Positions 36,397 to 37,951 of a stretch of DNA of 40,340 nt are shown here, piece by piece. Position 1 is the first letter of the stretch; the number at the start of each line of letters is the position of its first letter. The notes below the pieces were generated by a model. The model had not been told where the DNA came from. It made no database searches and worked only from the letters and a program-made list of their open reading frames with translations. The translations under genes and the position numbers were made by a program. Origin of the DNA: a virus. Lineage: Duplodnaviria > Heunggongvirae > Uroviricota > Caudoviricetes. The stretch is from the IMG/VR virus record IMGVR_UViG_2872185964_000009, one strand, 5' to 3'.

Positions 36397-37756
36397 TGAG
36401 CAGTAAGGCAGTATGACTTTCCGTGAGACAGATGCTGGCCAACGTGGGATATTTAACGCGGGTTAACATCGTTGTCAGAGCCGCATGGGTGAGCTGTTGC
36501 TACACCCGGTATTTCCACCACGGAGGCCAGCATGAACAACAATAACACATTGTACGTCGGGTTAGATGTTCACAAAGAATCGATTACTGTCGCTTATGCT
36601 ATCAATTCAGAACCTGTTGAACTGATGGGTAAAATTGGCACATCACCTACTGATATTCAGAATCTTTGTAAACGTCTCAGGTCAAAGTCATCGCAGGTCA
36701 GTATCGTTTATGAAGCGGGGCCCTGTGGTTATGGACTTTATCGTCGGCTGGTGAAATCCGGTTTTGACTGCATGGTCTGCGCCCCCTCACTTATCCCGAA
36801 AAAACCGGGGGAGCGGGTTAAAACCGATCGCCGTGATGCCATCAGACTTGTGCGTTCACTGCGTGCAGGAGATCTTTCTGCTGTCTACGTACCCGGTATT
36901 GAAGATGAGGCATTCCGGGATTTGGCCCGGGCATGGGCATCTGCCCGCGATGATTTACGGCATGCAAGGCAACGTCTGAAATCGTTTCTTCTGGTTCATG
37001 GGGTCCATTATGTCGGGCGAGCAGATTGGGGCCCTGCACACCGACGCTGGCTCAGCAAATACTCATTCGAAAGTCCCTGGCGACAATTAGCTTTTGACGA
37101 ACACCGTCGTACAATAGAAGACCGGCAGGCACAATGTGAACGGCTGGAATCCGCCCTGAAGGAGGCCGTTACCGAATGGAGGCTGTATCCGGTAGTAGAG
37201 GCGCTGCAAGCCATGCGAGGGATTCAGTTTATTACTGCGGTTGGATTAATTTCTGAACTGGGTGATCTGACCCGTTTTGAACATCCACGACAACTGATGT
37301 CATGGTTTGGTATCACGCCATCAGAATATTCATCGGGTGGAAGCAGACATCAGGGCAGCATTACCAAAGCCGGAAACAGCTATGCCAGAAAGCTATTGGT
37401 CGAGGCAGCGTGGAGTTACCGTCATCCGGCACGCATCAGTCCGGCAATACAAAAAAGGCAGGAAAATTTACCCCGCCCCGTCATTGACAGAGCATGGGAT
37501 GCTCAACTCAGGCTTTGTAAGAGGTATCGAAAACTTCAGGCCAAAGGAAAGAATGTCAATATTACAATTGTTGCTGTTGCACGTGAGCTGGCGGGTTTTA
37601 TCTGGGATATGGGCCGAATAGCAATGTCTGTCGCACAACAACCACAATGTCACAAATAAAAAATGAGAATAACCAGTTCCCTGAAGGCGACGTAGCCCGG
37701 TACAAGAGTAACCCACGTTAGCGCTTGGCGACGGCGGAACAAAGCTGATTCGCGAC
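36397..37756 (+). mobile_element. IS110-family insertion sequence (boundaries approximate; no inverted repeats expected)
   Basis: Single DEDD-type transposase ORF; rcnA homology stops near 36396. Confidence 0.7.
36532..37659 (+). CDS. IS110-family transposase (DEDD recombinase)
   Basis: 375 aa; N-terminal LYVGLDVHKESITVAYA RuvC-like motif and C-terminal ..AVGLISELGDLTRFEHPRQLMSWFGITPSEYSSGGS..GSITKAGNSYARKLLVEAAW.. domain. Confidence 0.85.
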   Translation: MNNNNTLYVGLDVHKESITVAYAINSEPVELMGKIGTSPTDIQNLCKRLRSKSSQVSIVYEAGPCGYGLYRRLVKSGFDCMVCAPSLIPKKPGERVKTDRRDAIRLVRSLRAGDLSAVYVPGIEDEAFRDLARAWASARDDLRHARQRLKSFLLVHGVHYVGRADWGPAHRRWLSKYSFESPWRQLAFDEHRRTIEDRQAQCERLESALKEAVTEWRLYPVVEALQAMRGIQFITAVGLISELGDLTRFEHPRQLMSWFGITPSEYSSGGSRHQGSITKAGNSYARKLLVEAAWSYRHPARISPAIQKRQENLPRPVIDRAWDAQLRLCKRYRKLQAKGKNVNITIVAVARELAGFIWDMGRIAMSVAQQPQCHK

Positions 37757-37951
37757 GTAAGAAAGTGGCAGGCTCATATGACGGACCTCTGTAATGCGGT
37801 ATCCAACCCGCGAATATCAGCGTGATTCACCGTCGGATTTACTGCTACGTCGCCCTCAGGGAATTAAACCTAAAAAGAAAATCGTCAAAATTAGAGATTC
37901 CGGTTTGACACGGAAAGTCATATCAGCGTCAACGGAGCACCGTATTGACGC

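What the first reader, a model, noticed from the sequence alone, without database searches (positions are those of the whole stretch)
36397..37951. Non-coding flanks of the IS110-family element are candidates for a bridge (seek) RNA; repeated GCGACGTA motif
IS110-family recombinases are now known to use an element-encoded structured non-coding RNA to specify target and donor. Here about 135 bp precede the transposase ORF and about 100-290 bp follow it before the IS66 tnpC stop. The 3' flank contains GCGACGTAG (37688), GCGACGTAAG (37753) and the inverted copy CTACGTCGCC (37846), able to form a long-range stem, plus the near-palindrome GTCAACGG..CCGTATTGAC at about 37920. Which flank belongs to which IS, and whether an RNA is made, cannot be decided from sequence alone.
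Basis: partly seen in the sequence, partly recalled or inferred. Interest (0 to 1): 0.45.

Follow-up and report, generated by a model that had tools for sequence, protein, structure and literature searches.

The report
ISSso6 bridge RNA in its right end
The 190 bases after the transposase gene of this ISSso6 element very probably encode its guide ("bridge" or "seek") RNA, which spells out the site the element inserts into; this kind of RNA is known and was already flagged for ISSso6 in a published table.

Summary
The element is ISSso6, window 36406-37926, with an AG core at each junction. Comparison with an empty site shows insertion at GTA-AG-CGCTAACG with no duplication beyond AG.

The 3' flank carries a conserved RNA of about 190 nt (37675-37865). 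A covariance model finds this RNA after the transposase gene in about 75 of 80 relatives (47-81% protein identity). 91.9% of cells pair, and 41 of 51 pairs show compensatory changes.

Two hypervariable blocks track each element's own flanks:
- Right-target guide: 177 of 246 matches against 72±7 when flanks are permuted.
- Left-target guide: 110 of 185 against 62±6.

A conserved AUAUCAG copies the right end plus core. One RNA position is complementary to a left-end position in 95% of relatives.

The 5' flank is a structured leader that hides the ribosome-binding site, not a guide RNA. The third GCGACGTA copy is coincidental. The palindrome near 37920 belongs to the IS66 end, which is the near-cognate target here.

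Durrant et al. 2024 (Supplementary Table 5) already list ISSso6 with a bridge RNA in the right end. No expression data exist for it. This is ordinary and confirmatory.

The parts
36403..36405 (+). Left target, positions -3 to -1 (GTA). Either the first three bases of the IS66-family terminal repeat (GTAAGCG...) or rcnA sequence.
   Evidence: All six E. coli copies with different flanks have GTA here. Uninterrupted IS66-family ends read GTAA|GCGTCAACGG. Intact rcnA reads GAGCAGTAAAGCG. It matches the GUA of the left-target guide.
36406..37926 (+). ISSso6 with both copies of the AG core (36406-36407 and 37925-37926). The element is 1519 bp when one core is counted.
   Evidence: Empty site L091 reads GGCTGTAAGCGCTAACGG. 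Occupied site L003 reads GGCTGTAAG|GCAGTATG...CATATCAG|CGCTAACGG. PGAP names these copies 'IS110-like element ISSso6 family transposase'.
36412..36425 (+). Left subterminal inverted repeat, TATGACTTTCCGTG.
   Evidence: It is 100% complementary to 37909-37922 (I3). The repeat is kept in relatives while its inner part differs between elements.
36409..36414 (+). -10-like hexamer CAGTAT of the promoter that would form at the circle junction.
   Evidence: The -35 box lies 17 nt from this hexamer in 29 of 38 relatives and 18 nt in 6. Variants include CATAAT and CAGAAT. This is inferred from sequence only.
36434..36531 (+). 5' leader. The helix GCUGGCC (36434-36440) with GGCCAGC (36525-36531) overlaps the Shine-Dalgarno GGAGG (36522-36526) and abuts the ATG. 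An inner hairpin contains CGCGGGUUA.
   Evidence: RNAalifold on 19 relatives keeps the helix through compensatory changes: GC to AU at two pairs in 5-6 sequences, and CG to UA. Single-sequence fold z = -3.1.
36532..37659 (+). Transposase/recombinase gene, 375 aa.
   Evidence: Matches Pfam PF01548 and PF02371 and NCBIfam NF033542. D12, E61, D99, D102 and S267-S268-G269 are invariant among 12 homologues.
37675..37865 (+). Predicted bridge (seek) RNA, from closing stem to closing stem. True 5' and 3' ends are unknown.
   Evidence: The covariance model hits 37673-37868 at 200 bits. It is the only plus-strand hit in the window.
37675..37696 (+). 5' arm of closing stem P1.
   Evidence: All 22 P1 pairs show changes on both sides among 54 distinct sequences, and 94-98% of cells pair (helices 1-3).
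37844..37865 (+). 3' arm of closing stem P1.
   Evidence: Same evidence as the 5' arm.
37706..37775 (+). Target-binding domain. Base stems 37706-09/37772-75 and 37713-16/37765-68 enclose an internal loop, which is capped by the distal stem-loop 37728-37753.
   Evidence: Helices 4-8 pair in 86-100% of cells, and 13 of their 15 pairs change on both sides.
37718..37725 (+). Right-target guide UUAGCGCU. Its reverse complement is AG-CGCTAA, that is, the core plus right target +1 to +6.
   Evidence: This is a hypervariable block. It matches the right flank at 177 of 246 positions against 71.7±7.3 permuted, with 0 of 20000 permutations as high. Positions +1 to +5 match in 73-88% of loci. It matches the empty site upstream of nhaA perfectly and the IS66 end here at 4 of 6.
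37755..37761 (+). Left-target guide block ACGUA-AG, same sense as the left target plus core. Only GUA-AG is informative.
   Evidence: AG is invariant in 51 of 51 sequences. The block matches the left flank at 110 of 185 positions against 61.8±5.9 permuted, with 0 of 20000 as high. Positions -1 and -2 match in 97% and 92%, -3 in 57%.
37780..37834 (+). Donor-binding domain: GACGG (37780-84), 5' loop strand, hairpin 37796-37811, 3' loop strand, CCGUC (37830-34).
   Evidence: Two of the four hairpin pairs show compensatory changes and all cells pair. GACGG/CCGUC pairs in 88% of cells but hardly varies (helices 11 and 9).
37789..37792 (+). Right-donor guide candidate CUGU, pairing with left-end bases GCAG (36408-36411, i.e. 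LE+3 to LE+6 counted from the core; the first pair is a G-U wobble).
   Evidence: The column of 37789 is complementary to left-end position +6 in 95% of 39 relatives. It has the highest mutual information of all RNA-column by end-position pairs, and all four Watson-Crick combinations occur. The guide is short, so the assignment is tentative.
37814..37820 (+). Left-donor guide AUAUCAG, same sense as the last five bases of the right end plus the core.
   Evidence: It is identical to 37920-37926 (D13). It is conserved family-wide. Variants ATACCAG and CATCAGAG co-occur with right ends ATACCAA and CATGAGAG.
37839..37844 (+). UUACUG, complementary to 37789-37794. This is a possible alternative or pseudoknot helix that would cover the right-donor guide.
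   Evidence: Only 62% of cells pair, but four of the five pairs show changes on both sides (for example 10 AU to CG at one pair) (helix 10). Clear examples are L033, L036, L040 and the marine clade.
37905..37910 (+). TTGACA, the -35 box facing outward in the right end.
   Evidence: TTGAC is conserved at a fixed distance from the end in the relatives.
37909..37922 (+). Right subterminal inverted repeat, CACGGAAAGTCATA.
   Evidence: I3.
37927..37951 (+).
   Evidence: It is identical in uninterrupted ISEc23/IS682-type ends, where GTAA precedes GCGTCAACGG.
37952..39082 (-). IS66-family tnpC, C-terminal part. This is context, not part of ISSso6.
   Evidence: Matches Pfam DDE_Tnp_IS66 and DDE_Tnp_IS66_C.

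Best explanation
The 3' non-coding region of ISSso6 (about 37675-37865, same strand as the transposase) encodes the element's bridge/seek RNA.

Structure: a long closing stem holds two domains, each an internal loop capped by a stem-loop.

Target-binding domain:
- The 3' strand (GUA-AG) pairs with the bottom strand, covering the core plus two to three bases to its left.
- Together they specify GTA-AG-CGCTA(A).

Donor-binding domain:
[quoted passage not shown] Inferred mechanism: the DEDD/serine recombinase bound to this RNA joins the circularised element to the target at the AG core without duplication. The circle junction carries a TTGACA-17-CAGTAT promoter.

In this window the element sits in a near-cognate site, the tip of an IS66-family terminal repeat (GTA-AG-CGTCAA, two mismatches to the right-target guide).

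Shown here: the conserved structure, the covariation of guides with flanks and ends, and the empty-site junction. Inferred from the published IS621, ISEc11 and related systems: that the RNA is made, binds the recombinase, and is required.
For: - The element is a catalogued IS110-family member encoding an 'RNA-guided transposase' family protein.
- A covariance model built from 21 close relatives finds the same RNA just after the transposase gene, on its strand, in about 75 of 80 loci down to 47% protein identity. In the window it hits only 37673-37868.
- Pair counts on 54 distinct sequences: 91.9% of cells paired, 41 of 51 pairs with changes on both sides, covariation score 0.508. Shuffled controls give 0.171 and slid partners give at most 0.071.
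- Right-target guide against right flank: 177/246 against 71.7±7.3 (0 of 20000 permutations). Left-target guide against left flank: 110/185 against 61.8±5.9 (0 of 20000). The guide's core-pairing dinucleotide CU/UU tracks the right-junction core AG/AA in 36 of 41 loci.
- The ISSso6 guides match a native empty site upstream of nhaA over 11 contiguous bases, AAGCGCTAACG. The occupied site shows insertion exactly at the AG.
- All six independent E. coli copies have GTA-AG on the left. Five of the six have CG at the first two positions of the right flank; the frameshifted copy L002 has TG.
- AUAUCAG copies the right end, and its variants co-vary with the end. RNA position 37789 is complementary to left-end position +6 in 95% of relatives.
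- The order of guides, top-strand match 5' of bottom-strand match, is the order reported for IS1111-type seekRNAs (PMC11187229).
- Durrant et al. 2024, Supplementary Table 5, list ISSso6 as 'Detected Bridge RNA End: RE'.
Against: - There is no expression, binding or transposition evidence for this element.
- No sigma-70-like promoter was found upstream of the RNA in the integrated copy.
- Rfam 15 gave no match, even at E up to 10.
- The donor-binding domain is less secure than the target-binding one. Its closing helix is either invariant (GACGG/CCGUC) or only 62% paired (CUGUAA/UUACUG), and the two cross each other.
- The right-donor guide rests mainly on one strongly covarying position, and in ISSso6 it does not cover the core.
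- The left-target guide is informative for only two to three bases beyond the core.
- Alignment A4 was fitted to the model's structure for most helices, which inflates the percentage paired.
- The permutation tests ignore the relatedness of the sequences, although flanks at different sites are independent.
Confidence: 0.88

Rival explanations
1. The conserved 3' structure is an mRNA 3'-end element (stabiliser or terminator), or a set of DNA binding sites for the transposase. It plays no part in choosing the target.
For: The RNA lies directly downstream of the transposase stop codon and would be co-transcribed. The closing stem is long and G+C-rich. No separate promoter was found.
Against: A terminator or protein site would not carry two hypervariable blocks that match each element's own left and right flanks. 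It would not carry a copy of the element's own right end. Compensatory changes keep pairing rather than sequence, which argues for RNA and not for DNA sites. No T-run follows the stem, and the terminator scan lists none there on the plus strand.
Confidence: 0.05
2. The guide RNA is encoded in the 5' flank (36408-36531), as in IS621 and ISEc21, and the 3' structure is something else.
For: The 5' flank is 126 nt, folds well (z = -3.1) and is conserved with covariation. It contains CGCGGGTTA, which looked complementary to AACCCRCG in the 3' RNA (I6, 36).
Against: The main conserved helix of the leader covers the Shine-Dalgarno sequence and abuts the start codon, which marks it as a translational leader. 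No hypervariable block in it was seen to match the flanks. The CGYGGGTT motif pairs locally with GCCRC(A) within the leader. It does not co-vary with the 3' RNA arm: longest matches average 5.73 against 5.19±0.31 permuted. All guide signals map to the 3' flank.
Confidence: 0.03
3. The motif cluster and stem in this one copy are chance or a local duplication and have no function.
For: Three GCGACGTA copies in 40 kb are not significant as a count: 12 of 100 shuffles reach 3. The middle copy is indeed coincidental.
Against: The same architecture is present in about 75 relatives across Burkholderiaceae, marine Gammaproteobacteria and diverse metagenome-assembled genomes, with E-values down to 1e-59 and compensatory changes.
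Confidence: 0.01

Closest known systems
IS621 bridge RNA (Durrant et al. 2024, PMC11208160; Hiraizumi et al. 2024, PMC11208158)
   Same: - The RNA is encoded in a non-coding end of an IS110-family element with a DEDD plus serine recombinase.
- It has two internal loops, one for the target and one for the donor.
- Each loop has one strand pairing with the bottom strand on the left of the core and one pairing with the top strand on the right, and the core is included in the guides.
- There is no duplication beyond the two-base core.
[quoted passage not shown]
- Read on the opposite DNA strand, the ISSso6 core AG is CT, as in IS621. The guide order then becomes left-right, left-right, with a long 'left' target guide and a short 'right' one, as in IS621.
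   Different: [quoted passage not shown]
- On the RNA's own strand the right guides come first and the core reads AG.
- A 22-bp closing stem encloses both domains.
- 14-bp subterminal inverted repeats are present.
- The right-donor guide is very short, and the closing helix of the donor domain is unresolved.
- Nothing has been tested experimentally for ISSso6.
IS1111-type seekRNAs of ISEc11, ISKpn4, ISPst6 and ISPa11 (Siddiquee et al. 2024, PMC11187229)
   Same: - The non-coding region lies downstream of the transposase gene.
- Subterminal inverted repeats are present, with a few extra bases outside them.
- The match to the target's top strand lies 5' of the match to the bottom strand.
- Targets are specific and differ between related elements through replacement of the guide blocks.
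- A junction promoter is present.
   Different: - The ISSso6 transposase is 375 aa, against 330-350 aa for IS1111 relatives.
- It is only 17-25% identical to the IS1111-group proteins in that paper's identity matrix.
- The published short seekRNAs are 82-96 nt. Here the conserved unit is about 190 nt and includes a donor-matching part.
Published catalogue entry for ISSso6 itself (Durrant et al. 2024, Supplementary Table 5)
   Same: It lists ISSso6 with 'Detected Bridge RNA End: RE' and group IS1111. That is the same conclusion as here on which flank holds the RNA.
   Different: In the text and tables I could read, that entry gives no coordinates, guide assignment or target for ISSso6. Those details are worked out here.
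IS4321/IS5075 in Tn21-family terminal repeats, and ISEc21 in IS3-family transposase genes (Partridge & Hall 2003, as cited in PMC11187229; Siddiquee et al. 2024)
   Same: An IS110/IS1111-type element whose preferred or frequent target lies inside another mobile element. In this window ISSso6 sits in the tip of an IS66-family terminal repeat, and at least 19 of the 30 best E. coli matches have the same right flank.
   Different: The ISSso6 guides fit a single-copy chromosomal site upstream of nhaA better (6 of 6) than the IS66 tip (4 of 6). The IS66 tip is therefore a frequent near-cognate site, not the coded optimum.

Membership tests
IS110-family bridge RNA / seekRNA | Encoded in a non-coding end of an element whose recombinase has the DEDD RuvC-like domain and the Tnp domain with the catalytic serine. 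| tested here: met
   Pfam PF01548 and PF02371. NCBIfam NF033542 at 273.9 bits, cut-off 140. D12, E61, D99, D102 and S267-S268-G269 are invariant. The RNA lies 15-205 nt after the stop codon.
IS110-family bridge RNA / seekRNA | Conserved secondary structure with internal loops flanked by stems, supported by covariation. | tested here: met
   91.9% of cells paired, 41 of 51 pairs with changes on both sides, score 0.508 against 0.171 shuffled and at most 0.071 slid. The target-binding loop is well defined. The closing helix of the donor-binding loop is ambiguous.
IS110-family bridge RNA / seekRNA | Loop strands match both strands of the target around the core (left and right target guides) and differ between elements with different targets. 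| tested here: met
   Permutation tests (0 of 20000 for each guide). Perfect match to an empty site and exact junction.
IS110-family bridge RNA / seekRNA | Loop strands match the element's own ends around the core (left and right donor guides). | tested here: inconclusive
   The left-donor guide AUAUCAG equals the right end plus core, and its variants co-occur with end variants. The right-donor guide is only about 4 nt, supported by one column at 95% complementarity, and in ISSso6 it does not pair with the core.
IS110-family bridge RNA / seekRNA | Insertion at a short core, with no target-site duplication beyond it. | tested here: met
   Empty against occupied site upstream of nhaA: only AG is present on both sides.
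IS110-family bridge RNA / seekRNA | [quoted passage not shown] | tested here: met
   TTGACA (37905-10), a 17-nt spacer, then CAGTAT (36409-14) on the joined ends. The same spacing occurs in 29 of 38 relatives. Sequence level only.
IS110-family bridge RNA / seekRNA | The RNA is transcribed, binds the recombinase and is required for circle formation and insertion. | not testable with these tools
   Needs RNA sequencing, co-purification and transposition assays.
IS1111 group (as opposed to the IS110 group) | Subterminal inverted repeats of 7-17 bp, and the longer non-coding region downstream of the transposase gene. | tested here: met
   14-bp repeats at 36412-25 / 37909-22. 267 nt downstream against 126 nt upstream.
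IS1111 group (as opposed to the IS110 group) | Transposase related across its full length to that of IS1111, 330-350 aa (the criterion of Siddiquee et al. 2024). | tested here: inconclusive
   The protein is 375 aa and 17-25% identical to IS1111-group proteins in that paper's matrix. Durrant et al. nevertheless label it IS1111. I built no phylogeny.
Any Rfam 15 family | Score at or above the family's gathering threshold. | tested here: not met
   No match in the window at gathering thresholds, and none at E up to 10 in 36300-38050. I do not know whether Rfam 15 holds a model for this type of RNA.

The most novel reading that the evidence does not exclude
In about a third of the relatives (14 of 41 distinct loci), the right junction core is AA and the right-target guide carries UU. 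The left junction, the left-target guide and the left-donor guide are always AG.

If these elements insert into AA targets with an AG donor, the second core base always ends up with the right-hand arm. That is what first-strand exchange predicts on the strand that reads CT (the IS621 'top' strand, cleaved 3' of CT). It would mean the core mismatch left by second-strand exchange is always settled in favour of the first-exchanged strand, or that the second exchange is replaced by replication.

Natural junctions of this family would then record the direction of heteroduplex resolution in bridge recombination.

A second open reading is that the helix CUGUAA/UUACUG masks the right-donor guide until the donor binds.
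Probability: 0.25. Interest if true: 0.45.

Novelty: already known. Interest (0 to 1): 0.2.

Why it matters
This mainly confirms existing work. It shows that a reader working from raw sequence correctly picked out the guide RNA of an RNA-guided insertion sequence, and it supplies three things the published catalogue entry lacks:
- the RNA's coordinates;
- the four guide segments;
- the coded target, GTA-AG-CGCTA(A).

That target explains why ISSso6 is so often found in the tip of IS66-family elements and at one site upstream of nhaA in E. coli and Shigella-like genomes.

The family alignment (about 75 RNAs with matched flanks) could be reused to design or annotate right-end bridge RNAs of this clade. 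It also contains a small mechanistic hint about how mismatched cores are resolved.

Tried and rejected
- **Rfam.** Searches at gathering thresholds and at E up to 10 gave nothing.
- **5' NCR pairing with the 3' RNA.** CGYGGGTT in the 5' flank looked complementary to AACCCRCG in the 3' RNA (I6, 36). I rejected long-range pairing because the motif does not track the RNA arm in distant relatives (5.73 against 5.19±0.31). It pairs locally within the leader instead.
- **The 10-nt identity ATATCAGCGT** (37814-23 = 37920-29, D13). I considered a left-donor guide plus a three-base extension matching the right target. The extra CGT is part of a conserved YGUGAUCCA and does not follow the flanks of relatives, so it is chance.
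- **GCUCAUAUGAC (37772-82)**, complementary to the right end (I17). This block is variable in relatives with the same ends, so it is chance.
- **UUACUGCU (37839-46) as the right-donor guide.** It does not change where the left end changes (L033, L036, L043, L045). It is better read as the partner strand of 37789-94.
- **Direct ISSso6 insertion into rcnA.** It predicts GTAAAGGCAG on the left and rcnA on the right. Neither is seen.
- **L003's right flank as another IS66-type end.** It is a single-copy chromosomal intergenic site.
- **Finding the source genome among complete E. coli genomes.** No record holds the rcnA-ISSso6 junction.
- **Single-sequence minimum-free-energy folds**. These recover the closing stem but not the comparative interior, so I did not use them for the domain model.
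Full report
**What is in the sequence**

The ORF 36532-37659 (375 aa) is an IS110-family recombinase. It matches Pfam DEDD_Tnp_IS110 and Transposase_20. It also matches NCBIfam NF033542, 'IS110 family RNA-guided transposase', at 273.9 bits against a cut-off of 140. In complete E. coli genomes the same DNA is annotated 'IS110-like element ISSso6 family transposase', and 51 records hold a near-full-length copy.

GCGACGTA occurs three times in the window, at 37687 (+), 37752 (+) and 37846 (-). 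The first and third copies sit in a 20-nt inverted repeat, 37677-96 / 37844-63. The stretch 37675-37865 folds with z = -5.1 against shuffles.

**Ends of the element and which flank belongs to which IS**

Six E. coli copies in different contexts share the sequence from GTAAGGCAGTATGAC... to ...GTCATATCAG (five end exactly in ...ATATCAG; one copy, L005, reads ...ATATCGG).

An empty-site and occupied-site pair settles the junction:
- Upstream of nhaA, the empty site reads GGCTGTAAGCGCTAACGG (L091).
- The occupied site reads GGCTGTAAG|GCAGTATG...CATATCAG|CGCTAACGG (L003).

Only AG is present on both sides, so AG is the core. In the window ISSso6 is therefore 36406-37926, or 1519 bp counting one core. 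It carries 14-bp subterminal inverted repeats at 36412-25 and 37909-22.

To the right, 37927 onward is the remainder of an IS66-family terminal repeat. Uninterrupted ISEc23/IS682-type ends read GTAA|GCGTCAACGGAGCACCGTATTGACGC.

To the left is rcnA, truncated.

**The 3' flank holds a conserved structured RNA**

I fetched 80 loci encoding relatives of the transposase, at 47-81% identity. They come from Burkholderiaceae, marine Gammaproteobacteria and many metagenome-assembled genomes.

The 3' non-coding regions of the closest group align over a core of about 190 nt that corresponds to window 37673-37868. RNAalifold predicts a closing stem and nested helices.

A covariance model built from 21 sequences finds this RNA on the transposase strand, just after the gene, in about 75 of the 80 loci. 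E-values run from 1e-59 to 1e-5. In the window the only plus-strand hit is 37673-37868, at 200 bits. Weaker minus-strand hits mirror the palindromic closing stem.

Pair counts on 54 distinct sequences:

| Measure | Observed | Shuffled control | Slid partners |
|---|---|---|---|
| Cells paired | 91.9% | 72.4% | 33-42% |
| Pairs changed on both sides | 41 of 51 | 30.3 | 15-22 |
| Covariation score | 0.508 | 0.171 | at most 0.071 |

One caveat applies. The alignment was fitted to the model for most helices, which favours pairing.

The helices are:
- Closing stem P1, 37675-96 / 37844-65.
- Two base stems of a first domain, 37706-09 / 72-75 and 37713-16 / 65-68.
- A distal stem-loop, 37728-53.
- A hairpin in a second domain, 37796-99 / 37808-11.

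**Guides for the target**

Between the base stems and the distal stem lie two blocks that are hypervariable among otherwise 83%-identical RNAs.

Block 1, window 37718-27 (UUAGCGCUUG):
- It carries a conserved CU or UU two bases before its 3' end.
- The reverse complement of the part up to and including that dinucleotide reads core plus right flank.
- Over 41 loci with distinct guides, it matches the element's own right flank at 177 of 246 positions. With flanks permuted the figure is 71.7±7.3, and none of 20000 permutations is as high.
- Positions +1 to +5 match in 73-88% of loci; position +6 is at chance.
- CU or UU goes with a right-junction core of AG or AA in 36 of 41 loci.

Block 2, window 37755-64 (ACGUAAGAAA):
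- It carries an invariant AG.
- The bases before the AG match the left flank in the same sense at 110 of 185 positions, against 61.8±5.9 permuted (0 of 20000).
- Positions -1 and -2 match in 97% and 92% of loci, and -3 in 57%.

By the published definitions (PMC11208160), block 1 is a right-target guide because it pairs with the top strand to the right of the core. Block 2 is a left-target guide because it pairs with the bottom strand to the left.

For ISSso6 the coded target is GTA-AG-CGCTA(A):
- The nhaA-upstream empty site matches it over 11 contiguous bases.
- The IS66 tip in this window (GTA-AG-CGTCAA) has two mismatches.
- All six E. coli copies have GTA-AG on the left.

Its likeness to the P1 arm is coincidental, since relatives read, for example, UUGCGGAACAAG there.

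**Guides for the donor**

AUAUCAG at 37814-20 is identical to the last five bases of the right end plus the core (D13). It is conserved across the family. Where the right end differs, this segment often differs with it:
- ATACCAA ends go with AUACCAG in six of ten marine elements. The other four keep AUAUCAG, which can still pair by U-G.
- A CATGAGAG end goes with CAUCAGAG.

This is a left-donor guide.

A scan of every RNA column against every position of both ends gave its highest mutual information for the column of 37789 against left-end position +6. The two are complementary in 95% of 39 loci, and all four Watson-Crick combinations occur. With its neighbours this gives a short right-donor guide, CUGU (37789-92) against GCAG (36408-11).

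In distant relatives the same stretch reads GUCU and also pairs with the core. In ISSso6 it does not.

The closing helix of this domain is unresolved:
- GACGG (37780-84) with CCGUC (37830-34) is almost invariant and pairs in 88% of cells.
- CUGUAA (37789-94) with UUACUG (37839-44) pairs in 62% of cells, with some compensatory changes.
- The two helices cross, so they could form a pseudoknot or be alternatives.

**Orientation relative to IS621**

On the RNA's own strand the order is right-target, left-target, right-donor, left-donor, and the core reads AG. This is the reversed order reported for IS1111-type seekRNAs (PMC11187229).

Read on the opposite DNA strand, the core is CT and the order becomes that of IS621. 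It then has a long 'left' and a short 'right' target guide, as in IS621 (PMC11208158). This is a restatement of known family behaviour, not a new finding.

**The 5' flank**

The 126-nt leader is conserved and structured. Its main helix is GCUGGCC (36434-40) with GGCCAGC (36525-31). It covers the 3' part of the Shine-Dalgarno GGAGG and abuts the ATG, and it is kept by compensatory changes in 19 relatives.

A motif CGYGGGUUAGC at about +52 looked complementary to the 3' RNA. However, it pairs locally within the leader and does not co-vary with the RNA arm. I saw no hypervariable block in the leader that matches the flanks.

The leader is best read as a translational control element, not a guide RNA.

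**Junction promoter**

Joining the ends gives TTGACA (37905-10), a 17-nt spacer, then CAGTAT (36409-14). TTGAC lies 17 nt from the equivalent hexamer (CAGTAT, CATAAT, CAGAAT and others) in 29 of 38 relatives and 18 nt in six.

No sigma-70-like site precedes the RNA in the integrated copy. This fits the weak expression reported for integrated IS621 (PMC13626964), but nothing was measured here.

**Comparison with what is known**

Durrant et al. 2024 list ISSso6 in Supplementary Table 5 with 'Detected Bridge RNA End: RE' and group IS1111. Siddiquee et al. 2024 include its transposase in their data set. There it is only 17-25% identical to the IS1111-group proteins shown, and at 375 aa it is longer than their 330-350 aa.

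The existence and location of the RNA were therefore already predicted. The coordinates, guide assignment and coded target are added here. Rfam 15 has no matching family.

**Left junction: an open point**

Intact rcnA reads TTGAGCAGTAAAGCGCTTGC. It thus itself resembles the ISSso6 target, with one extra A.

The simplest history is that an IS66-family element inserted in rcnA and ISSso6 then entered its tip. Direct insertion of ISSso6 into rcnA predicts GTAAAGGCAG on the left and rcnA on the right, and neither is seen.

The other IS66 end lies beyond the window, and no complete E. coli genome holds this junction. The window probably comes from a Shigella-like genome.

**Verdict**

It is a catalogued element of a well-described kind, so interest is low.

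The most novel reading left open concerns the core. In 14 of 41 relatives the right core is AA while the left core and the left-side guides are always AG. This would fit a fixed direction of mismatch resolution after first-strand exchange. I examined no empty sites for those elements.

Noticed in passing
window 36330-36411; L090 340-400: rcnA is truncated at the ISSso6 left junction. The intact gene reads GAGCAGTAAAGCGCTTG at that exact point. That is a near-copy of the ISSso6 target GTA-AG-CGCTA with one extra A, so it is unclear whether the junction GTA comes from rcnA or from the IS66 tip.
   Followed up: partly
L016, L036, L039, L044, L087 and others (right junctions); window 37724-37725: In 14 of 41 relatives the right-junction core is AA and the right-target guide has UU. 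The left junction is AG in 51 of 53 loci under a pattern that allows any two bases at the core (one exception is a false match), and the left-target guide (51 of 51) and, in the listed relatives, the left-donor guide read AG. Core position 2 therefore travels with the right-hand arm.
   Followed up: partly
window 36434-36531: The 5' leader of the transposase mRNA has a conserved helix that covers the Shine-Dalgarno sequence up to the start codon. Compensatory changes keep it across relatives. This is probably translational control.
   Followed up: yes
L086 2850-3045 and 3228-3423: One Desulfosarcina locus has two identical copies of the RNA 378 nt apart, downstream of a single transposase gene. 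Each copy is followed by a right-end-like sequence.
   Followed up: no
L031 2677-2819: A Paraburkholderia humisilvae copy has an RNA of only 143 nt. It lacks the whole target-binding domain but keeps the closing stem and the donor domain.
   Followed up: no
window 37952-39543 (-): The IS66-family tnpC is split into two ORFs, 39172-39543 and 37952-39082, so it is probably frameshifted or otherwise disrupted. tnpB (39574-39924) and tnpA (39921-40340, running off the window) lie upstream.
   Followed up: no
window 33827-35240: ORFs whose translations look IS1-like (an InsA-like and an InsB-like product, 34514-35211, minus strand) lie next to a fimbrial-chaperone-like ORF (33827-34579). With IS66 and ISSso6, three insertion sequences fall within 6 kb. 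No complete E. coli genome has the rcnA-ISSso6 junction, which suggests a Shigella-like source.
   Followed up: no
L002 (E. coli C51) 1676-1871: This frameshifted ISSso6 copy has five substitutions in the RNA, including one in the right-target guide (37725 U to C). Its right flank (TGAATG) fits the coded target poorly. It is probably a decaying copy.
   Followed up: no
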